Origin: Escherichia coli
GTDB taxonomy: Bacteria > Pseudomonadota > Gammaproteobacteria > Enterobacterales > Enterobacteriaceae
Assembly (NCBI RefSeq): GCF_050920415.1
Contig: NZ_CP169309.1
Direction: 5' to 3' (one strand)
DNA: 64,000 nt
The position numbers were made by a program, and so were the translations under genes. The notes under the pieces were generated by a model. It saw nothing but the letters and a program-made list of their open reading frames with translations. It did not search any database and was not told the origin of the DNA. Shown piece after piece: positions 630 to 32,552 of the stretch. Each line of letters starts with the position of its first letter. The stretch's first letter is position 1.

Positions 630-3600
630 TTATTTATGCAATCGTATGTGGTTTTTAGGTGTGTTTACTCTAAGATTATCAATATCATAGACTTCTCCCC
701 CATATTGGATTTCGTCAATATGATGAATTTCAAATGTACCTCGCCCCCCAACTCTTTGTCTTGATATAGTATAAGGTGCGCGTCCACGCTTTATCAACGT
801 TTGGTTAGCTTTATTAAATTGGCTCAATAGTTCTGGACATTCACCTACAGCAGTCCAGAAAGCTGCCCTGAATTCATCAAAATTGTTAAATGACTTACTC
901 CGAAGTTTATTTGCGACCTGTTGTGGAATTGGCACTCCTAAGCTTTTCCCCGCCTGCGACAGCCATCTTCCTGTACCTGCTAACACCTCCCCCTTACCTG
1001 TTACTGTTCCCGCTTCATCCCTTGCAGTTTTCAGATACACATATATTGGTGTTAATTCCGCACCGTCAGGAAAGACAAGTATCCAGTCATTAAAATTTCG
1101 CTCCTCCGGCATTGGAGAAGGCGGCGTGGTGATATCTGTTTTTTCATCGGGTATCGGATTAACATAAATATCAGGTAGATCAACTGGTTCGACAGGAGTT
1201 CCGGTGTGTATGGGCTGCTCTGAACCTTCTGGCTTTGCAGGCGTCCAAAATATTTTTGGTCCCGAATCAGACACAGGTGAAAATTCATAACGGGAAAATT
1301 CCTTATTCCACTCCATCAATGCTACCCGAACACCTTCAAGTTCCGAACCTGCGGGTGTGTGGTATCCGTATGTTCTCAATTCACCAGCAGTATTCCGCTG
1401 AAAGAGAAAGCGCGCCCGCGTAGCTGCCGTCTCTCCAGATTGCGCTTTACGACGTAGCTCATTTTCGAGCCACTGTTCATCCCGTCCAGGAACTTTATCA
1501 CTACCTTCACCGGCAGGTATTGGATATAGTGCTGATACTAGAACACCAAGGGCTGGCACCGTTTTTGATACACTTAAAAAACCTTCTCCACCCCATGCCC
1601 CTAATGTTCCCCATACGCGAGTTAAAACTCCCGCAGACTGTTCCGCCGCTAGTGGAACCGCAACACCCGCTGACGCAACTGTCATTTCCCCCGTCAGTGA
1701 GTTCGCTCCTGAAGTTTTTTTTGCTGACTGCGCAAGTTGCTCCACTTCATCGTCATGATAGTGTGTACCATAGCCGCAACAGTCATCCTCCACTGGCTGG
1801 GCAAATAGAGCCATATCACCAAAATGTTTCGATGGCTCCATGGTCGTACCAGCATCAGTGCAGCCTTTCTCCTTCAGACAAGATTTTGCGTATACAGGAA
1901 TTACCAGTTCATCTGAATCGTCCTTGTCTTCTTCTCCACCTTCTGATTCATCCTCATCACTAGGCTCTCCGTCATTCCCGCCGCCAGCATTCCCTCTGTC
2001 ATACTGCTCGTCAGCCAGAGCGTCCATAACTGCCGGTTGTAGTGTATTTATCGGCGTCCCCGGACTGCCCCCGCCATTCAGATTTATTTTCGGTCCGACA
2101 ATATCCACACCACCAGAATGAACGACCACAAACGAGCCCCCCACCTTCAGGCTTATCCGGCTGCTGCTCTCCAGCACGATATCCCCGTCCACCTTGATCC
2201 CCAGCGCGCCACTCACCTTCTCCGCCAGGTCGCCCTTCACCTCCAGACTGTGCGTTCCCTCCACCAGACTGATATGGTTCCCCGTCGTCTTATGCTCCTG
2301 CTTCCCTTCCACCGTCACTTTACGGTCGTTTCTGACATACAGGCCGTCATCGTGACTCACGCTCACCGTCCGGTCATTCGTCACCTTCAGCGTCTGGTCA
2401 TTACGTACCGTTATGCGCCGGTCGTTCGCCACCGTGATACTCTGGTCGTGACCCCCTTCTTTTCTGGTGCCGACCTCAACCGTCTGCCCCTTCACCACCC
2501 TTATCTTCTGGTCGTTACCGATGGTCTCCGTATGGTCATGCTTCACGTCCGTCCGCCGGTCGTTAAGCACCTCCGTGTCCATGTTCTTCTGCGCGTGGAT
2601 ATACACCTGCTCACTGTCCGTCGCATCCTCGAAACGCAGTTCATTAAAGCCGCTTCCTTTATAGGTCTTCGAGCGGATGGTCATCTGCGTCCGCGTGCCC
2701 GGTAAATCCCCCGGTGAACGGTTGTCCTCATGGTATGTCCGCCCCGTCACAATGGGCTGGTCCGGGTCGCCGTTCAGAAAGTCCACTATCACTTCCTGAC
2801 CCACACGCGGTATCGCCAGATTGCCGAACCCCGGTCCCGCCCATGCCTGCGACACCCGTATCCAGCATGAACTCTCCTCCGTCATCCCGTGATAACGGTC
2901 CCAGTGAAACTTCACCCGTACCCGGCCATGTTCGTCGCAGAATATCTCCTCGCCCTTCGGCCCGGTCACAATGGCACTCTGCGGGCCGTCCACCTTCGGC
3001 TTCGGCAGCGGCGCGTGACGCCACGTCCTGTCTGCCGGTATCACCTCAAACTGATTGCTCAGTGTCGTCCCTTCACCGTGACTCCCGTGCAGCGCCTGCG
3101 GCTGTTCTCCCCGCAGTGTGCTTCCCACAACCTGCCATTCCCGGTTCAGCGTCCCTGACGGATGGCCCGTCAGCCGGAACCGCGTTCCCGGCCACAGTCG
3201 CGCCGTGTTACACACCCCGCTCGCCGTCTCCGCCCCGTTCCGCCACCCTTCCGTCTGGTAACGCGCAAAATCCTGGCCATGCTGCTCATCCTTGAAACGC
3301 CCCGGATAATCAAATATCTCGTACTGCGTTCCCTGCCCGTTCAGGCTCTCCCCGTCATGGCTGTAGTACCCCGGCCACCCCGGCGTTTTGAACGTATAAT
3401 CCTGCGTCTCCACCGACGCCACGCTTATCTGCGCACGGTAACGGAAGTCGCTGATGTACTCTGTCGTGCCTCCGGTCGTGGTATTCGGGTTAAACGCCAG
3501 CGCCCCCATTCCCGTCAGCCCCGCCACGTCATCACACACCGCCAGCTTCTGTTCCGGCCCGTCCTGACTGCAGCGTTCATAAAAGAAGATACCTTCCTCC

Positions 3601-4085
3601 GCCCACAGCCGGGTCAGGAATGTCAGGTCGCTCTCCCCGTACTGCACGCAGAACTCCCGCGCCGGGTGCGCCTCATAGAACAGCGGCATCCACGCCGTCA
3701 CCCCGTTCTCTCTCAGAAGCTGTGCTGATATCGTCCCTATGTCCTGCTGCTGGAAGATACGGAAGTTCTGCCGTAACCCTGCCCGCCACAGCGGCGGGCT
3801 GATGCTCAGGGAATAACGCATCTGCCAGTCGTTGTTCTCACCGAGCTGCACCTCCGTCACGATACCGCTGACGTAACGCTGCGGGATATCACCCTGCCAG
3901 ACCGTCAGCACCGCGCTCTTCTCCAGAAAATCCTCCGCCGTCAGGTCAGACAGCCCGCTGGCGATATCCACATCCAGGATGAACGGCGTGCAGTGGTGCT
4001 GGTACAGACGGAAGCTCACCACCGCCGTCGCCATCTCCACGATACCGGCCACCGACAGCGTGAAACGTAATCCTTCTGAGGACAT
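630..4085 (-). CDS. vgrG: Evolved VgrG (T6SS spike, gp27/gp5-like core) with about 430 aa C-terminal extension ending in a colicin E9-like HNH DNase domain
   Basis: Six-frame ORF 630..4118 (1162 aa). N-terminus MSSEGLRFTL... is VgrG-like, so the likely start is the ATG at 4085 with a GGGG motif upstream (ORF-track alternative 4118). The middle has gp5-type repeats (VANDRRITVRNDQTLKVTNDRTVSV...). The C-terminus ...FDEFRAAFW...RQRVGGRGTFEIHHIDEIQYGGEVYDIDNLRVNTPKNHIRLHK matches the colicin E9/E7 DNase H-N-H motif by eye. Confidence 0.88.
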   Translation of the reverse strand: MSSEGLRFTLSVAGIVEMATAVVSFRLYQHHCTPFILDVDIASGLSDLTAEDFLEKSAVLTVWQGDIPQRYVSGIVTEVQLGENNDWQMRYSLSISPPLWRAGLRQNFRIFQQQDIGTISAQLLRENGVTAWMPLFYEAHPAREFCVQYGESDLTFLTRLWAEEGIFFYERCSQDGPEQKLAVCDDVAGLTGMGALAFNPNTTTGGTTEYISDFRYRAQISVASVETQDYTFKTPGWPGYYSHDGESLNGQGTQYEIFDYPGRFKDEQHGQDFARYQTEGWRNGAETASGVCNTARLWPGTRFRLTGHPSGTLNREWQVVGSTLRGEQPQALHGSHGEGTTLSNQFEVIPADRTWRHAPLPKPKVDGPQSAIVTGPKGEEIFCDEHGRVRVKFHWDRYHGMTEESSCWIRVSQAWAGPGFGNLAIPRVGQEVIVDFLNGDPDQPIVTGRTYHEDNRSPGDLPGTRTQMTIRSKTYKGSGFNELRFEDATDSEQVYIHAQKNMDTEVLNDRRTDVKHDHTETIGNDQKIRVVKGQTVEVGTRKEGGHDQSITVANDRRITVRNDQTLKVTNDRTVSVSHDDGLYVRNDRKVTVEGKQEHKTTGNHISLVEGTHSLEVKGDLAEKVSGALGIKVDGDIVLESSSRISLKVGGSFVVVHSGGVDIVGPKINLNGGGSPGTPINTLQPAVMDALADEQYDRGNAGGGNDGEPSDEDESEGGEEDKDDSDELVIPVYAKSCLKEKGCTDAGTTMEPSKHFGDMALFAQPVEDDCCGYGTHYHDDEVEQLAQSAKKTSGANSLTGEMTVASAGVAVPLAAEQSAGVLTRVWGTLGAWGGEGFLSVSKTVPALGVLVSALYPIPAGEGSDKVPGRDEQWLENELRRKAQSGETAATRARFLFQRNTAGELRTYGYHTPAGSELEGVRVALMEWNKEFSRYEFSPVSDSGPKIFWTPAKPEGSEQPIHTGTPVEPVDLPDIYVNPIPDEKTDITTPPSPMPEERNFNDWILVFPDGAELTPIYVYLKTARDEAGTVTGKGEVLAGTGRWLSQAGKSLGVPIPQQVANKLRSKSFNNFDEFRAAFWTAVGECPELLSQFNKANQTLIKRGRAPYTISRQRVGGRGTFEIHHIDEIQYGGEVYDIDNLRVNTPKNHIRLHK
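633..1004 (-). other. HNH (beta-beta-alpha-metal) colicin-type DNase toxin domain, the last ~124 aa of VgrG
   Basis: HH...N...H arrangement (EIHH, NTPKNH, RLHK) and a preceding KSLGVPIPQQVANKLRSKSFNNFDEFRAAFW segment, collinear with the colicin E9 DNase domain as remembered. About 38% GC by eye, versus about 60% for the VgrG core. Confidence 0.75.
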
Positions 4086-4260
4086 ATAAACCCCATAGCT
4101 ACCGCACTCATGGTGCAAACCATACGGGCTTATAAGAAAGGCTTAAGTGAGATATCTGCCAGATAGCAACTATTAGGAAAATATTTATATATATTTCATG
4201 AATATATATTTCGGTTGGTATAACGGTGTCTAAATATTCCTCTGAACATCTTCCTGATAC

Positions 4261-22318: not shown

Positions 22319-23725
22319 TCAGAAGATGGTGAATGGTGCGATTACCATAAATTTCACGTCACGCTCATCCTGGAAGATGTTGCCGTAACCACCGCCCCAG
22401 CTTGGGATGTCGGAGTGGTTGTCGTATTCGGTAAAGTGCAGTTTGAACATCGTGCCTTTGGCGCGACCGTCCTGAATGGTGTAGACCGCATCCAGGCTGT
22501 ATGCAGACTCTTCAATAGTCCGGTTTTTGTCGTAGTACGCATCCGGATTGCTCTGCCAGGTAGCGGGTTTAGCATCCCATGCGTAAACGTAGGAAGCGCC
22601 GATGGCGAAGCCTGGAAGATTCCAGTTTTTCAGGTCATACATCGCACCGAAGAAGACCGCTTTTTCGCCGTTGGCGTTGAAGTCAGAACGGTTATCCCAC
22701 CAGATATCCAGGCGACCGTTCGAGGAAGCGTAGGTTGGAGTCATACGTTGCAGGAAGTATCCCTGCTGGCCGTCGGCTTTAACCCAGGTGCCTTCCAGAC
22801 GCAAATCCACTACGTCAGCCGCCCGGTAACCAAAGGTCAACGCTTGCAGCCAGGCGGTGCCGTCATAAAGATCGTTGACGCTGCGATCGTCAACTTTATC
22901 GCGCGTACCGTAGAACTGGTAGCTGGTGGTTAACGGGCTACCGGCGATATCAAATTTGTAGCTGGCTTTGGCAAAATATTGATCGATATACCCTTCTGCC
23001 TGACCAAATGCCGCTTCCAGTACGAAGTTATTTTTGAAGTCGTACTTCGCCCCAAGGGAGTGTAGATAATCAACTTTGGTGGTTTTATCGTTCTGATAAA
23101 ACTCATCCATTTCCAGATGCCACGGCGCTTTATATTCGTTGGTCCACATGTAGGAGAAACTCAACGCACCAGCATCGCCGTAATCAAAATTCGCCCCCGC
23201 TTCCGCCCCCTGATAAGTACCCGGCATAAAGCTCCAGTGCGGCGCTAACAGCGTCTGACCGGTTGGCTGAATATAACCTGCCCGCGCCCACACCGGACCG
23301 TATTTAAATTTGGCCGCTGCTTTATACAGGCTTATACCGCTTTTATCGCCGGACCAGTCTTCGTCATAGGCTTTATTGCTTTTTGAAAACGCGATTTCGT
23401 TCGGGTGAGAACTGTCGCCGTTTTCCGCCATTTCAATCGCCGTAAACGCCGCAATATCAAGGCCGAACATATCAGCAGCATAACCAGACTGAAAATCGAG
23501 GTTGGCATTCCAGGTGGAGTGAGAAAGGTTGGTTTTGTATTTATCGCCGTCGGTAACGTCTTTACGGTCGCGTTCACGCTGCCAGTAATAGATACCGCCG
23601 GTTAAGGTTGAATCGTCGATGAATCCTTCGGCGCGAGCCTCCGGCATTGCCATAAAGCCCGACATTGCTGTAACACTGGCGATAGCCAGCGCCAGCGTAC
23701 TACGTTTGCCACTAAACGTACGCAT
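22319..23725 (-). CDS. chiP: Chitoporin ChiP (OprD-family outer membrane porin)
   Basis: 468 aa with signal peptide; C-terminal aromatic residue (F). Confidence 0.9.
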
Positions 23726-24125
23726 GGGTTAATCCTCTTTGACGTATAAATTGCTGCACCAAAGGTGAACAGCGAAAAAAATAAAAATTAAAAAAGTAGC
23801 GTTGAGAAAAGTCTCGCTGACTACAGGAACAGACTATTTTTCGCGACGCGAATTATCAATCTCTTTCTGTAACCAGAATGTAAGAACATGAGCAACCGCA
23901 CATATTTTGATGATTTTTGTTACAAGGCTTAAGTTTGCAGTTGAAAGGCTTGCAGAAGAATAAAAGCGTGAATTTCCAGCAAGATGAAAACGGTTACATT
24001 TTATTTAATTATGGTTTGTGATTTTAAATTTGTTTTATGGATAAATTGCGAAGCGGAATTAATTCGCGAAGAAAAGCAAAAAAAACGCCGCAGAGCGCGG
24101 CGTTTGGGTTTGTTTGCTATTTCTT

Positions 24126-24287
24126 GCCGGATGCGGCGTGAACGCCTTATCCGGCCTACAAAAGCACGCAAATTCAATATATGGCAGAGATCATGTAGGC
24201 CTGATAAGCGTAGCGCATCAGGCAATTTAGCGTTTGAAACTGTTTCTATGTTTCTTGCCGGATGCGGCGTAAACGCCTCACCCGGCC
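24126..24287. repeat. REP/BIME cluster (three REP units) between chiP and glnS
   Basis: gccggatgcggcgtgaacgccttatccggcctac, gtaggcctgataagcgtagcgcatcaggc, gccggatgcggcgtaaacgcctcacccggcc. Confidence 0.8.
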
Positions 24288-24302
24288 TGGTAGAACTTAA
24301 AA

Positions 24303-26234: not shown

Positions 26235-28181
26235 TTACTTTTTGATTTCATACAGCGGCGTTTGACCCGCCACAACATGACCTTGAGCTTTAATGATAAG
26301 GCCGCTGAAATCGTCGATATTGCTGCAAACCACCGGGCTAATCATCGAACGGGCGTTAGCGTTCAGGTAATCCAGATCCATTTCCAGAATCGGTTGCCCT
26401 GCGCTTACTTGCGCCCCCTCTTCCACCAGACGTTTAAAGCCTTTGCCTTCCAGCGCTACGGTGTCGATACCCATATGGACGACAATCTCAGCGCCTTTTT
26501 CGGTTTCCAGGCAGAACGCGTGATTGGTGTTGAAGATTTTCACGATTGTCCCTGCGGCTGGCGATACGACGATTTTATCCGTCGGTTTCACCGCCACACC
26601 GTCACCCACCGCTTTGCTGGCAAATGCTTCGTCAGGAACCTGATCCAGCGCCACAACATCACCGGTAATCGGCGATACCAGCTCCGCGACAGACACCGCG
26701 TTTGGTACGGCCTGCGGTTTTGCTACAGGCACGGTAGTTGCAGGCGCAGTTTCAGCAGAGGCGGCTGCTACCGGACCACGGGCAACGACTTTCTTCATTG
26801 CATCGCCAATGGATTCCGCTTTCGCGCCAACAATCACCTGAATAGTCTGTTTGTTCAGTTTTACCACCCCAGAAGCACCCAGACGTTTACACATCGCATC
26901 GTTGACGCGAGCTGAGTCAGCCACCGTCAGGCGCAGACGAGTAATACAGGCGTCAATGGCTTTCAGGTTGTCAGTGCCGCCAACCGCAGCAATATAGTTG
27001 GTCGCCAGTTGATTGAGACCTTCTTCAGTGTTGCTGTTGGCTTCTTCAGTAACGATCTCGTCTTCTTTATCTTCGCGACCCGGCGTTTTCAGATTGAACA
27101 TGCGGATAACCACACTGAACACCACGAAGTAGATAGCGAAGAACACAACCCCCATCACCAGCAGCATCCAGACGTTCTGGCTGGCGGCCGGCAGGTTATA
27201 CATCAACGCGTAGTCGATAGCCCCCGCAGAGAAGGAGAAGCCAGCATGGATACCCAGCAGCGTTGCCACAAACAGGCTGATACCCGTCAGCAGTGCGTGC
27301 AGGAGGTACAGCAGCGGCGCAAGGAACATGAACAGGAATTCCAGCGGCTCAGTCACACCGGTCAGGAACGCAGTAACAGCAACAGAAAGCAGCATACCGC
27401 CAACCATCGGACGACGCTCTTTCGGTGCTGCGAAGTACATCGCCAGCGCCGCACCCGGCAGACCGAACATCATAATCGGGAAGAAGCCGGACATGAACAT
27501 CCCCGCGGTGCCGTCACCGGCATAGAAGCGGTTAATGTCGCCGTGGAAAACCGTACCCGCCGCGTTGGTGAATTCACCAATCTGGAACCAGGCGATGGTG
27601 TTCAGTACCTGATGCAGACCGGTTGGGATCAGCAGACGGTTGATGAAACCAAAGATACCGGAACCCAGCGCGCCCGCAGAAACGATCCATTCGCCGCCTG
27701 CATGGATAGCGTGCTGTACCGGTGGCCAGACGTAACCAAAAATGGCCGCCAGCACCAGGCAGAAGAAGCCGGTGGCGATCGGCACAAAACGTTTGCCGCC
27801 AAAGAAGCTCAGGAAATCCGGCAGTTTAATATCGGACCAACGGTTATAGACTGCGCCACCCACCAGACCGGTAATGATACCCGCCAGTACACCCATGTTA
27901 ATTTCTGGGTTGATGGTCACCATCGCTTTGGTTAATACAAAGTAACCTACCGCACCCGCCAGGGCCGCCGCACCTGCGCTGTCTTTCGACCAGCTGGATG
28001 CCACACCGATGGCGAAGATTAATGCGAGGTTATCAAAAATCGCACCGCCCGCCTGGGCAATAAACGCAACGTTAAGTAAATCTGGCTGACCGAATCGCAG
28101 CAACAGTGCCGCCACCGGCAGCACCGCGATAGGGAGCTGTAACGCCCTACCGAGTCGCTGGAAAAAACCTAAAATATTCAT
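26235..28181 (-). CDS. nagE: PTS N-acetylglucosamine-specific EIICBA
   Basis: 648 aa; polytopic N-terminus, EIIB Cys-containing CITRLR motif, EIIA C-terminus. Confidence 0.95.
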   Translation of the reverse strand: MNILGFFQRLGRALQLPIAVLPVAALLLRFGQPDLLNVAFIAQAGGAIFDNLALIFAIGVASSWSKDSAGAAALAGAVGYFVLTKAMVTINPEINMGVLAGIITGLVGGAVYNRWSDIKLPDFLSFFGGKRFVPIATGFFCLVLAAIFGYVWPPVQHAIHAGGEWIVSAGALGSGIFGFINRLLIPTGLHQVLNTIAWFQIGEFTNAAGTVFHGDINRFYAGDGTAGMFMSGFFPIMMFGLPGAALAMYFAAPKERRPMVGGMLLSVAVTAFLTGVTEPLEFLFMFLAPLLYLLHALLTGISLFVATLLGIHAGFSFSAGAIDYALMYNLPAASQNVWMLLVMGVVFFAIYFVVFSVVIRMFNLKTPGREDKEDEIVTEEANSNTEEGLNQLATNYIAAVGGTDNLKAIDACITRLRLTVADSARVNDAMCKRLGASGVVKLNKQTIQVIVGAKAESIGDAMKKVVARGPVAAASAETAPATTVPVAKPQAVPNAVSVAELVSPITGDVVALDQVPDEAFASKAVGDGVAVKPTDKIVVSPAAGTIVKIFNTNHAFCLETEKGAEIVVHMGIDTVALEGKGFKRLVEEGAQVSAGQPILEMDLDYLNANARSMISPVVCSNIDDFSGLIIKAQGHVVAGQTPLYEIKK

Positions 28182-28304
28182 CTTATTCCCCCTACGAGAA
28201 CCCTATTTGGCTCGTTTAAAGCCGTATTTTTATTTTGCTGCAAATTGTACTGCCGATGTTCTGTAATCAGATTGTTAGATCATCTGCTACAGAGTGTGTG
28301 AAAA

Positions 28305-28327
28305 TTTAATTCGTATCGCAAATTAAA
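28305..28327. promoter_or_regulatory. NagC operator (nagE-proximal)
   Basis: tttaattcgtatcgcaaattaaa palindrome-like element in the divergent nagE/nagB region. Confidence 0.6.
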
Positions 28328-28335
28328 CGCGTGTC

Positions 28336-28357
28336 TTTTGTGAGTTTTGTCACCAAA
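28336..28357. promoter_or_regulatory. CRP site in the nagE-nagB intergenic region
   Basis: TGTGAgttttgTCACc. Confidence 0.6.
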
Positions 28358-28398
28358 TATCGTTATCATCACTCCCTTTTACTGGCTAAACCAGAAAA

Positions 28399-28422
28399 CT
28401 TATTTTATCATTCAAAAAATCA
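28399..28422. promoter_or_regulatory. Putative second NagC operator (nagB-proximal)
   Basis: cttattttatcattcaaaaaatca; position consistent with the two-operator loop remembered for nagE/nagB. Confidence 0.4.
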
Positions 28423-28514
28423 GGTCGGATTGACGCCTGTCTGCGCAAATCCAGGTTACGCTTAAAGATGCCTAATCCGCCAACGGCTTACTTTTTACTT
28501 ACTTGAGGTGAATA

Positions 28515-30523
<2,009 letters not shown>

Positions 30524-30531
30524 GAGAAAGT

Positions 30532-31752
30532 ATGACACCAGGCGGACAAGCTCAGATAGGTAATGTTGATCTCGTAAAACAGCTTAACAGCGCGGCGGTT
30601 TATCGCCTGATTGACCAGTATGGGCCAATCTCGCGGATTCAGATTGCCGAGCAAAGCCAGCTTGCCCCCGCCAGCGTAACCAAGATTACGCGTCAGCTTA
30701 TCGAACGCGGGCTGATCAAAGAAGTTGATCAGCAGGCCTCCACCGGGGGCCGCCGCGCTATCTCCATTGTCACCGAAACCCGCAATTTCCACGCAATCGG
30801 CGTACGGCTTGGTCGTCATGACGCCACCATCACCCTGTTTGATCTCAGCAGCAAAGTGCTGGCAGAGGAACATTACCCGTTGCCTGAACGCACTCAGCAA
30901 ACGCTGGAACATGCACTGCTGAATGCCATTGCTCAGTTTATTGATAGCTACCAGCGCAAACTGCGCGAGCTGATCGCCATTTCCGTGATCCTGCCAGGGC
31001 TTGTTGACCCGGACAGTGGCAAAATTCATTACATGCCGCATATTCAGGTAGAAAACTGGGGACTGGTAGAAGCACTGGAAGAACGTTTTAAAGTGACCTG
31101 TTTTGTCGGCCACGATATCCGCAGTCTGGCACTGGCAGAGCACTACTTCGGTGCAAGCCAGGATTGCGAAGACTCCATTCTGGTGCGTGTGCATCGCGGA
31201 ACCGGGGCAGGGATTATCTCTAACGGGCGCATTTTTATCGGGCGCAACGGCAACGTCGGTGAAATTGGCCATATTCAGGTCGAACCGCTGGGTGAACGCT
31301 GCCACTGCGGCAACTTTGGCTGCCTGGAAACTATCGCCGCCAACGCTGCCATTGAACAACGGGTGTTGAATCTGTTAAAGCAGGGCTACCAGAGCCGTGT
31401 GCCACTGGACGACTGCACCATCAAAACTATCTGCAAAGCCGCGAACAAAGGCGATAGCCTGGCGTCGGAAGTGATTGAGTATGTCGGTCGTCATCTGGGC
31501 AAAACCATCGCCATTGCTATCAACTTATTTAATCCGCAAAAAATTGTTATTGCCGGTGAAATCACCGAAGCCGATAAAGTGCTGCTCCCTGCTATTGAAA
31601 GCTGCATTAATACCCAGGCGCTGAAGGCGTTTCGTACTAATCTGCCGGTGGTACGTTCTGAGCTGGATCACCGCTCGGCAATCGGCGCTTTTGCGCTGGT
31701 AAAACGCGCCATGCTCAACGGTATTTTGCTCCAGCATTTGCTGGAAAATTAA
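30532..31752 (+). CDS. nagC: NagC transcriptional regulator (ROK family)
   Basis: 406 aa; helix-turn-helix N-terminus; ROK zinc motif CHCGNFGCLE. Confidence 0.95.
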   Translation: MTPGGQAQIGNVDLVKQLNSAAVYRLIDQYGPISRIQIAEQSQLAPASVTKITRQLIERGLIKEVDQQASTGGRRAISIVTETRNFHAIGVRLGRHDATITLFDLSSKVLAEEHYPLPERTQQTLEHALLNAIAQFIDSYQRKLRELIAISVILPGLVDPDSGKIHYMPHIQVENWGLVEALEERFKVTCFVGHDIRSLALAEHYFGASQDCEDSILVRVHRGTGAGIISNGRIFIGRNGNVGEIGHIQVEPLGERCHCGNFGCLETIAANAAIEQRVLNLLKQGYQSRVPLDDCTIKTICKAANKGDSLASEVIEYVGRHLGKTIAIAINLFNPQKIVIAGEITEADKVLLPAIESCINTQALKAFRTNLPVVRSELDHRSAIGAFALVKRAMLNGILLQHLLEN

Positions 31753-31799
31753 TGTGCTTTTATAGTGGCGCTTATTGTTGTCAATATTCTGGGTAGTCC

Positions 31800-32552
31800 A
31801 TGACCATTAAAAATGTAATTTGCGATATCGACGGCGTGCTGATGCACGATAACGTCGCCGTACCGGGTGCAGCGGAATTTTTGCACGGGATTATGGATAA
31901 AGGCCTGCCGCTGGTGTTGCTGACCAACTATCCTTCGCAGACCGGGCAGGATCTGGCGAACCGCTTTGCCACTGCGGGTGTAGATGTGCCGGACAGCGTG
32001 TTTTATACCTCCGCGATGGCGACCGCCGATTTCCTGCGTCGCCAGGAAGGCAAGAAAGCGTATGTGGTGGGCGAAGGCGCACTGATTCATGAACTGTACA
32101 AAGCCGGTTTCACTATTACCGATGTGAACCCTGATTTTGTGATTGTTGGCGAAACGCGTTCCTACAACTGGGACATGATGCATAAAGCAGCCTATTTCGT
32201 CGCTAACGGTGCACGCTTTATCGCCACCAATCCGGATACTCACGGACGCGGTTTTTATCCAGCCTGCGGCGCGTTGTGCGCGGGGATCGAGAAAATCTCC
32301 GGACGTAAACCGTTCTATGTCGGTAAGCCCAGCCCATGGATCATCCGCGCGGCATTAAACAAAATGCAGGCGCATTCGGAAGAAACGGTGATTGTCGGTG
32401 ATAATCTGCGTACCGACATTCTGGCGGGCTTCCAGGCCGGTCTGGAGACGATTCTTGTACTGTCCGGTGTTTCGTCGCTCGACGATATCGACAGTATGCC
32501 GTTCCGCCCGAGCTGGATTTACCCATCGGTCGCTGAAATCGACGTTATCTGA
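31800..32552 (+). CDS. umpH: UMP phosphatase (HAD superfamily; NagD)
   Basis: 250 aa; DIDGV HAD motif I. Confidence 0.9.
   Translation: MTIKNVICDIDGVLMHDNVAVPGAAEFLHGIMDKGLPLVLLTNYPSQTGQDLANRFATAGVDVPDSVFYTSAMATADFLRRQEGKKAYVVGEGALIHELYKAGFTITDVNPDFVIVGETRSYNWDMMHKAAYFVANGARFIATNPDTHGRGFYPACGALCAGIEKISGRKPFYVGKPSPWIIRAALNKMQAHSEETVIVGDNLRTDILAGFQAGLETILVLSGVSSLDDIDSMPFRPSWIYPSVAEIDVI

What the first reader, a model, noticed from the sequence alone, without database searches (positions are those of the whole stretch)
28182..28514. Divergent nagE/nagB control region with NagC-like operators flanking a CRP site
Seen in sequence: tttaattcgtatcgcaaattaaa and a second AT-rich NagC-like element bracket a TGTGA-N6-TCACC CRP core. 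This matches the known DNA-looping architecture of the nag regulon. It is ordinary, but it confirms the locus is intact.
Basis: partly seen in the sequence, partly recalled or inferred. Interest (0 to 1): 0.15.

Follow-up and report, generated by a model that had tools for sequence, protein, structure and literature searches.

The report
Known nagE–nagB control region, intact
This 333-base gap between two E. coli amino-sugar genes is the well-studied on/off switch of the N-acetylglucosamine regulon (two NagC repressor sites around one CRP activator site), it is intact, and it is ordinary.

Summary
Window 28182-28514 is exactly the gap between divergent nagE (-) and nagBACD (+). It is 100% identical to many E. 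coli genomes. It differs from K-12 MG1655 at 4 of 333 positions, none in a binding site.

The "second AT-rich element" (28399-28421) is letter-for-letter the published nagB operator. The TGTGA-N6-TCACC core lies at 28339-28354, between them.

A NagC matrix built only from seven sites elsewhere in the genome ranks these two operators 2nd and 3rd in the 64 kb. First is the known chiP operator, which also lies in the window.

The CRP core alone is no better than chance (1 hit, 1.81 expected). Its support comes from identity to K-12 and from conservation.

In 60 loci from other species, the operator centres are 94 bp apart in 49 and 93 bp in 9. The CRP centre lies 30.5 bp from the nagE operator centre in 56. 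The sequence between the sites and the leader lengths drift freely.

The mechanism is the one published for K-12: NagC forms a repression loop, GlcNAc-6-P releases it, and cAMP-CRP activates. This is already known, so interest is low.

The parts
28182..28514 (.). nagE-nagB divergent intergenic control region (333 bp, 38% G+C against 51% for the window)
   Evidence: Found in 5424 of 5426 complete E. coli genomes. Differs from K-12 at 4 positions.
28305..28327 (.). nagE operator (NagC site, centre 28316). TT at -6/-5, AA at +5/+6, T/A at +/-11. 16 of 23 positions are self-complementary.
   Evidence: Reverse complement of the published nagE site TTTAATTTGCGATACGAATTAAA (PMC3098098). Leave-out matrix score 17.7 bits, rank 2. 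Conserved in 58 of 60 loci from other species.
28336..28357 (.). CRP (CAP) site. Core TGTGA-N6-TCACC at 28339-28354, centre 28346.5.
   Evidence: 9 of 10 core matches and the only such hit in the window, though 1.81 are expected by chance. At least 8 of 10 core matches in 58 of 60 loci, and the centre lies at a fixed 30.5 bp from the nagE operator centre in 56 of 60, with a variable N6. Identical in K-12.
28399..28421 (.). nagB operator (NagC site, centre 28410). TT at -6/-5, AA at +5/+6, C at -11 and +11.
   Evidence: Identical to the published nagB site CTTATTTTATCATTCAAAAAATC (PMC3098098). Matrix score 14.5 bits, rank 3. Lies 94 bp from the nagE operator centre.
28383..28388 (+). Inferred nagB promoter -35 hexamer TGGCTA
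   Evidence: Inference. It is an isolated conservation peak (T, G, C, A) in otherwise unconserved spacer, 17 bp upstream of TATCAT. The consensus promoter scan found nothing here, as expected for an activator-dependent promoter.
28406..28411 (+). Inferred nagB promoter -10 hexamer TATCAT, inside the nagB operator. Implied start near 28418, which puts CRP near -71.5.
   Evidence: Inference. TATnAT is conserved across species in the operator centre, where other NagC sites vary. The transcription start was not verified here.
28316..28321 (-). Inferred nagE promoter -35 hexamer TTGCGA, inside the nagE operator
   Evidence: Inference. The operator half that carries it (28317-28326) is nearly invariant, more so than the other half.
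28293..28298 (-). Inferred nagE promoter -10 hexamer CACACT. Implied start near 28285-28286, which puts CRP near -61.
   Evidence: Inference. ACACT (28293-28297) is strongly conserved among 42 Enterobacterales inside an unconserved leader. It lies 17 bp from TTGCGA. The transcription start was not verified here.
26235..28181 (-). nagE, the GlcNAc-specific PTS IIABC transporter (648 aa)
   Evidence: NF007608 equivalog, 1446 bits, profile positions 1-648 of 648. 11 amino-acid differences from K-12.
28515..32552 (+). nagB-nagA-nagC-nagD (umpH) operon
   Evidence: NCBIfam equivalog models, all matched full length. NagA, NagC and NagD are identical in protein to K-12; NagB differs by G265D.

Best explanation
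This is the canonical control region of the E. coli nag regulon.

The two NagC operators are centred 94 bp apart, about 9 helical turns, so they lie on the same face of the DNA. One overlaps the nagE promoter and the other overlaps the nagB promoter. NagC bound to both holds the intervening DNA in a loop and represses both divergent promoters. The nagE operator has A/T at +/-11 and depends on cooperative binding with the strong nagB operator. GlcNAc-6-phosphate, made when NagE imports GlcNAc, releases NagC. cAMP-CRP bound at the single site inside the loop then activates both promoters.

Shown here: the identity of the sites, their matrix scores, their conservation and their spacing. Taken from the literature on K-12: binding, looping, induction and CRP dependence. 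Inferred here: the positions of the -35 and -10 hexamers and of the transcription starts.
For: - Gene context is nagE divergent from nagBACD, all full length.
- Both operators are identical to the published sequences (PMC3098098 Table 1).
- Both carry the invariant TT/AA at +/-5,6. They show the +/-11 pattern described for nagE (A/T) and for high-affinity sites (C/G) in PMC4288165.
- A leave-out NagC matrix ranks them 2nd and 3rd in 64 kb, after the known chiP operator.
- The region differs from K-12 at 4 of 333 positions, none in a site. The flanking genes differ at 2.0-5.0% of nucleotides.
- The 137-bp core is at least 99% identical in 5344 of 5424 E. coli genomes. The most divergent one examined varies only outside the sites.
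- In 60 loci from Enterobacterales, Aeromonas and Vibrionaceae, the spacing is 94 bp in 49 and 93 bp in 9. The CRP centre lies 30.5 bp from the nagE operator in 56. The intervening sequence is unconserved, the gap ranges from 253 to 500 bp, and the leaders range from 48 to 270 bp.
- The literature states that looping is required, that altering operator phasing derepresses both operons, and that GlcNAc-6-P is the inducer (PMC4288165; PMC2946308; PMC3551598; PMC5401889).
Against: - No binding, looping or transcription start was measured here. The primary papers (Plumbridge and Kolb 1991, 1993, 1998; Plumbridge 2001) are not in the held library.
- The CRP core is not significant on sequence alone.
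- The consensus promoter scan finds no sigma-70 promoter in the region, so the promoter hexamers rest on conservation and geometry.
- The -61.5 and -71.5 positions of CRP are my recollection of the 1991 paper. They fit the sequence but I did not verify them.
Confidence: 0.95

Rival explanations
1. The two AT-rich elements and the TGTGA/TCAC core are chance matches in an AT-rich intergenic region and have no regulatory role.
For: The region is 38% G+C. The CRP core occurs at chance frequency in the window. The nagB operator's matrix score is expected 0.62 times per 64 kb by chance.
Against: Both operators are identical to experimentally defined sites. The joint occurrence in one 333-bp region has P of about 0.001 and 0.02 for the two operators. 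Sequence, spacing and CRP offset are conserved across three orders of bacteria while the surrounding bases are randomised.
Confidence: 0.01
2. The nagE operator, with A/T at +/-11 like Mlc sites, is mainly a target of Mlc, the glucose-regulon paralogue, rather than of NagC.
For: [quoted passage not shown] It also reports that overexpressed Mlc or NagC can repress each other's targets.
Against: The same paper states that there is no cross-regulation at physiological protein levels. It also states that, with the nagB operator present, the nagE operator is preferentially regulated by NagC. The conserved 94-bp pairing with a C/G-flanked NagC operator fits cooperative NagC binding.
Confidence: 0.03
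3. The TGTGA-N6-TCACC element is not a CRP site but a spacer or bend element needed only for loop geometry, or a site for another CRP/FNR-family factor.
For: The flanks of the 22-mer do not match the CRP consensus (10 of 22 positions). Its fixed position inside the loop could reflect a purely architectural role.
Against: The conserved bases are exactly the CRP half-sites with a freely varying N6. The titles and citations of the K-12 work name CAP binding and cAMP-CAP dependence of this region (references listed). The FNR consensus has a different core (my own knowledge).
Confidence: 0.02

Closest known systems
E. coli K-12 nagE-nagBACD regulatory region (two NagC operators, one CAP site, repression loop; Plumbridge and Kolb)
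   Same: Same genes on both sides. Both operators and the CRP core are identical to K-12. The 94-bp operator spacing is the same. 329 of 333 positions match.
   Different: Three substitutions (28218 A for C, 28367 C for T, 28492 T for A) and one extra C at 28502. All lie in leaders or spacer. The window's allele of the 137-bp core is the commoner one among E. coli genomes.
Other two-operator NagC systems (chb, glmUS, fimB, chiP)
   Same: A 23-bp quasi-palindrome with TT/AA at +/-5,6, and cooperative use of two sites (PMC5401889; PMC3098098). The chiP proximal operator is in this same window at 23835-23857.
   Different: Those systems have other spacings and partners (ChbR, IHF, SlyA), and NagC activates at glmUS and fimB. 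Here NagC is purely a repressor of two back-to-back promoters that share one CRP site.
Mlc operators (ptsG, ptsHI, manX, malT, mlc)
   Same: The sequence logo is nearly indistinguishable, and the A/T at +/-11 is shared with the nagE operator (PMC4288165).
   Different: The nagB operator has C at +/-11. Regulation at physiological levels is by NagC.

Membership tests
NagC (ROK-family) operator | 23-bp quasi-palindrome with invariant TT at -6/-5 and AA at +5/+6 (PMC4288165; PMC2806358) | tested here: met
   The site centred at 28316 has TT at 28310-11 and AA at 28321-22. The site centred at 28410 has TT at 28404-05 and AA at 28415-16.
NagC (ROK-family) operator | C or G at +/-11 in high-affinity sites, with A/T at +/-11 in the atypical nagE operator | tested here: met
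   The nagB operator has C at 28399 and C at 28421. The nagE operator has T at 28305 and A at 28327.
NagC (ROK-family) operator | Scores as a NagC site with a matrix built from independent known sites | tested here: met
   Matrix from 7 sites elsewhere in the genome: ranks 2 and 3 of about 64,000 positions. The held-out chiP operator ranks 1.
NagC (ROK-family) operator | Sequence identity to the experimentally defined nagE and nagB operators | tested here: met
   Exact matches to Table 1 of PMC3098098.
NagC (ROK-family) operator | Bound by NagC and released by GlcNAc-6-P | not testable with these tools
   Known for the identical K-12 sequence (PMC5401889 used this region as a footprint control). 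NagC in this window is identical in protein to K-12.
NagC repression loop of the nag regulon | Two operators in helical phase, each overlapping one of the two divergent promoters | tested here: met
   The centres are 94 bp apart, about 9.0 turns. The spacing is 94 or 93 bp in 58 of 60 loci from other species, and 126 bp (12 turns) in Moritella. The overlap with the promoters is inferred from conserved hexamers.
NagC repression loop of the nag regulon | Loop formation is required for repression (phasing mutants derepress) | not testable with these tools
   Literature only: PMC2946308 and PMC4288165, both citing Plumbridge and Kolb 1993.
CRP (CAP) binding site | TGTGA-N6-TCACA core | tested here: met
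   9 of 10 core positions at 28339-28354. At least 8 of 10 in 58 of 60 loci.
CRP (CAP) binding site | Statistically enriched match, or a good full 22-bp score | tested here: inconclusive
   1 hit against 1.81 expected per window. Ranks 12th by an ad hoc weighted consensus, with 10 of 22 matches. No curated CRP matrix was available.
CRP (CAP) binding site | Centred at an activating distance from the transcription starts (class I, near -61.5 and -71.5) | tested here: inconclusive
   The inferred -10 hexamers put the starts near 28285-28286 and 28418. That places CRP near -61 and -71.5. The starts themselves were not verified.

The most novel reading that the evidence does not exclude
The operator-CRP-operator core behaves as a fixed-geometry module: 94 bp between operators, with CRP 30.5 bp from the nagE operator. 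It has been held almost indel-free across Enterobacterales, Aeromonadales and Vibrionales, even where the adjacent nagE gene is a form only about 45% identical to the K-12 type. This would mean that the CRP-induced bend is a structural, selected part of the NagC repression loop, and that the switch is conserved independently of the transporter gene it controls.
Probability: 0.15. Interest if true: 0.3.

Novelty: already known. Interest (0 to 1): 0.08.

Why it matters
For this window it matters only as annotation. It shows that the amino-sugar catabolic switch (sites, spacing, genes and the NagC protein) is intact and of the common E. coli type. The survey of other species adds a clean illustration that spacing, and not only sequence, is under selection in a looped repression system. 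This extends well-known biology and does not change it.

Tried and rejected
- The primary papers could not be read. A search for the -61.5/-71.5 positions found nothing relevant. The transcription starts therefore remain inferred.
- The consensus sigma-70 scan found no promoter in 28100-28600. It found one terminator-like hairpin (28208-28224, + strand), which is at chance level.
- The Rfam scan of 28100-28600 gave only a chance hit to a yeast snoRNA (E = 0.36, below the gathering score).
- ORFs of 20 aa or more inside the gap have no support. The leaders are unconserved except for the Shine-Dalgarno regions.
- An ad hoc 22-bp CRP consensus score did not discriminate, so I dropped it as evidence.
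- The NagC-matrix hit at 1279-1301 (13.8 bits) lies inside a long ORF and is at chance level.
- PMC4288165 has no supplementary files held as text.

Full report
**What is at the coordinates.** Window 28182-28514 is exactly the gap between a 648-aa ORF on the - strand (26235-28181) and a 266-aa ORF on the + strand (28515-29315). NCBIfam equivalog models identify them, full length, as NagE (NF007608, 1446 bits) and NagB (NF001685, 627 bits). NagA, NagC and NagD/UmpH follow on the + strand. GlnS and AsnB flank the cluster. This is the K-12 gene order in reverse orientation.

**Comparison with E. coli genomes.**
- The 333-bp gap is found in 5424 of 5426 complete E. coli genomes and is 100% identical to many of them.
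- Against K-12 MG1655 it shows three substitutions and one 1-bp indel, at 28218, 28367, 28492 and 28502.
- The flanking genes differ from K-12 at 2.0-5.0% of nucleotides, against 1.2% for the gap. NagC is identical in protein sequence.

**The observation.**
- A second element, CTTATTTTATCATTCAAAAAATC, is at 28399-28421.
- TGTGAGTTTTGTCACC is at 28339-28354, between the two.
- Table 1 of the FITBAR paper (PMC3098098) lists the known NagC sites. Its nagB site is identical to the second element, and its nagE site is the reverse complement of the first.
- Both carry the only invariant NagC/Mlc positions, TT at -6/-5 and AA at +5/+6 (PMC4288165).
- The nagB operator has C at both +/-11, the mark of high-affinity NagC sites. 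The nagE operator has T/A there. The same paper describes it as an atypical hybrid that relies on cooperative binding with the strong nagB operator through a DNA loop.

**Is it more than chance?**
- I built a symmetrised matrix from the seven listed sites that lie outside this window (chbB, manX, fimB1, fimB2, glmU, ydeN1, ydeN2) and scanned all 64 kb.
- The top hit is 23835-23857 (20.8 bits), which is the published ybfM/chiP proximal operator. I had held it out, so it serves as a positive control.
- The nagE operator is second (17.7 bits) and the nagB operator third (14.5 bits).
- First-order Markov simulations give 0.07 and 0.62 hits per 64 kb at those scores. In a 333-bp sequence of the gap's own AT-rich composition the probabilities are 0.0012 and 0.021.
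- The CRP core is weaker evidence. It is the only match with at most one mismatch in the window, but 1.81 are expected by chance. Its flanks do not match the consensus (10 of 22 positions; rank 12 by an ad hoc score).

**Conservation within E. coli.** The 137-bp core (28295-28431) is at least 99% identical in 5344 of 5424 genomes. The most divergent genome I examined, at 97.8%, differs only at 28334, 28335 and 28365, outside the operators and the CRP core.

**Conservation across species.**
- One scan of representative genomes with NagB returned 80 loci. In 60 of them a nagE homologue is divergent from nagB.
- I scanned each gap with the same leave-out matrix and a CRP core count.
- The two best NagC sites are 94 bp apart in 49 loci and 93 bp apart in 9.
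- The best CRP core has 9 of 10 matches in 49 loci and 8 of 10 in 9.
- The CRP centre is 30.5 bp from the nagE-side operator centre in 56 loci.
- These loci span Enterobacterales, Aeromonas, Photobacterium, Grimontia, Enterovibrio, Salinivibrio and one Vibrio.
- Over the same loci the gap length ranges from 253 to 500 bp. The distance from the nagB operator to the ATG ranges from 48 to 270 bp, and from the nagE operator to its ATG from 94 to 186 bp.
- An ungapped profile anchored on the nagE operator (50 sequences) shows near-zero information everywhere except five places: the two operators, TGTGA/TCAC with a variable N6, a short peak at 28382-28388, and a block at 28292-28304.
- Moritella has 126 bp between sites, about 12 turns, so still in phase. 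Bisgaardia shows no such pair.
- Saturated sequence with no indels between the sites is direct evidence that spacing is under selection. This is what a phase-dependent loop predicts.

**Promoters (inferred).**
- The consensus scan found none, as expected for CRP-dependent promoters.
- On the nagB side, TATCAT (28406-28411) sits in the centre of the operator. It is conserved as TATnAT across species, although operator centres vary among other NagC sites.
- Seventeen bp upstream of it lies the isolated conserved TGGCTA (28383-28388). A start near 28418 would put CRP at about -71.5.
- On the nagE side, TTGCGA (28321-28316, - strand) lies in the nearly invariant half of the operator.
- Seventeen bp downstream of it, CACACT (28298-28293) contains the ACACT that is strongly conserved in 42 Enterobacterales. 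A start near 28285-28286 would put CRP at about -61.
- These values agree with my recollection of Plumbridge and Kolb (1991): -61.5 and -71.5, with the starts 133 bp apart. I could not read that paper.
- On this reading, NagC at the nagE operator covers the -35 and spacer, and NagC at the nagB operator covers the -10 and the start.

**Mechanism.** The following comes from the literature.
- NagC represses nagE-BACD.
- GlcNAc-6-P, the product of NagE transport, displaces it (PMC3551598; PMC8964723).
- Repression needs cooperative binding to both operators through a loop (PMC4288165; PMC5401889).
- Changing the phasing between the operators derepresses both operons (PMC2946308).
- CRP is involved in expression (PMC2946308).

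Binding, looping and induction were not tested here.

**Other checks.** Rfam gave only a chance hit. The small ORFs in the gap have no support. A terminator-like hairpin at 28208-28224 is at chance level.

**Verdict.** This is a textbook system that is already known, and interest is low.

Noticed in passing
window 23835-23857 (- strand), also 24040-24062 and 24058-24080: The published chiP (ybfM) proximal NagC operator GATAATTCGCGTCGCGAAAAATA lies upstream of the 468-aa chiP ORF (22319-23725) and is the top NagC-matrix hit in the window. Two overlapping NagC-like 23-mers (13.0 and 10.9 bits) sit just after the glnS terminator. They may be the distal chiP site or sites.
   Followed up: partly
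L003-L082, upstream of nagB (e.g. L003:3-1184, L006:3-1174, against L005:3-1174): nagE comes in two deeply different forms at the same position. The K-12-like form shows at least 87% identity over the first 120 aa in 11 loci. The second form is about 45% identical over 394 aa but still passes the TIGR01998 NagE IIBC model, and it occurs in most other loci. Both forms occur within Enterobacter and within Cedecea. Both keep the same operator-CRP-operator core. This suggests nagE was replaced in place next to a conserved switch.
   Followed up: partly
L003 (NZ_JAATUR010000059.1, labelled E. coli SCPM-O-B-8794): NagB is 99% identical to the window's protein and the nagB-side half of the gap is identical. 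From about the nagE operator leftwards the DNA diverges, and nagE is the second form. That nagE DNA has no megablast match in 5426 complete E. coli genomes. This could be a recombinant or a mislabelled assembly.
   Followed up: partly
window 28452-28464: The block CCAGGTTACGCTT in the nagB leader is moderately conserved among 42 Enterobacterales, while the surrounding leader is not (also visible). I found no function for it.
   Followed up: no
L072 (Moritella sp. PE36) and L062 (Bisgaardia hudsonensis): Moritella has its two NagC-like sites 126 bp apart (12 turns rather than 9), with the CRP core 62.5 bp from the left site. The Pasteurellaceae locus shows no convincing operator pair.
   Followed up: no
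window 24120-24300 (- strand reading): Repeated GCCGGATGCGGCGT/AGGCCGGATAAGGCG-type REP/BIME-like palindromic units lie between glnS and chiP.
   Followed up: no
window 28182-28514 against the flanking genes: The non-coding gap differs from K-12 at 1.2% of positions, whereas nagE, nagB, nagA, nagC and nagD differ at 2.0-5.0% of nucleotides. The regulatory DNA is therefore more conserved than the neighbouring coding DNA.
   Followed up: yes
window 1279-1301: GAAAATTCATAACGGGAAAATTC scores 13.8 bits with the NagC matrix (rank 4) but lies inside a 1162-aa ORF (630-4118, - strand). The score is at chance level.
   Followed up: no
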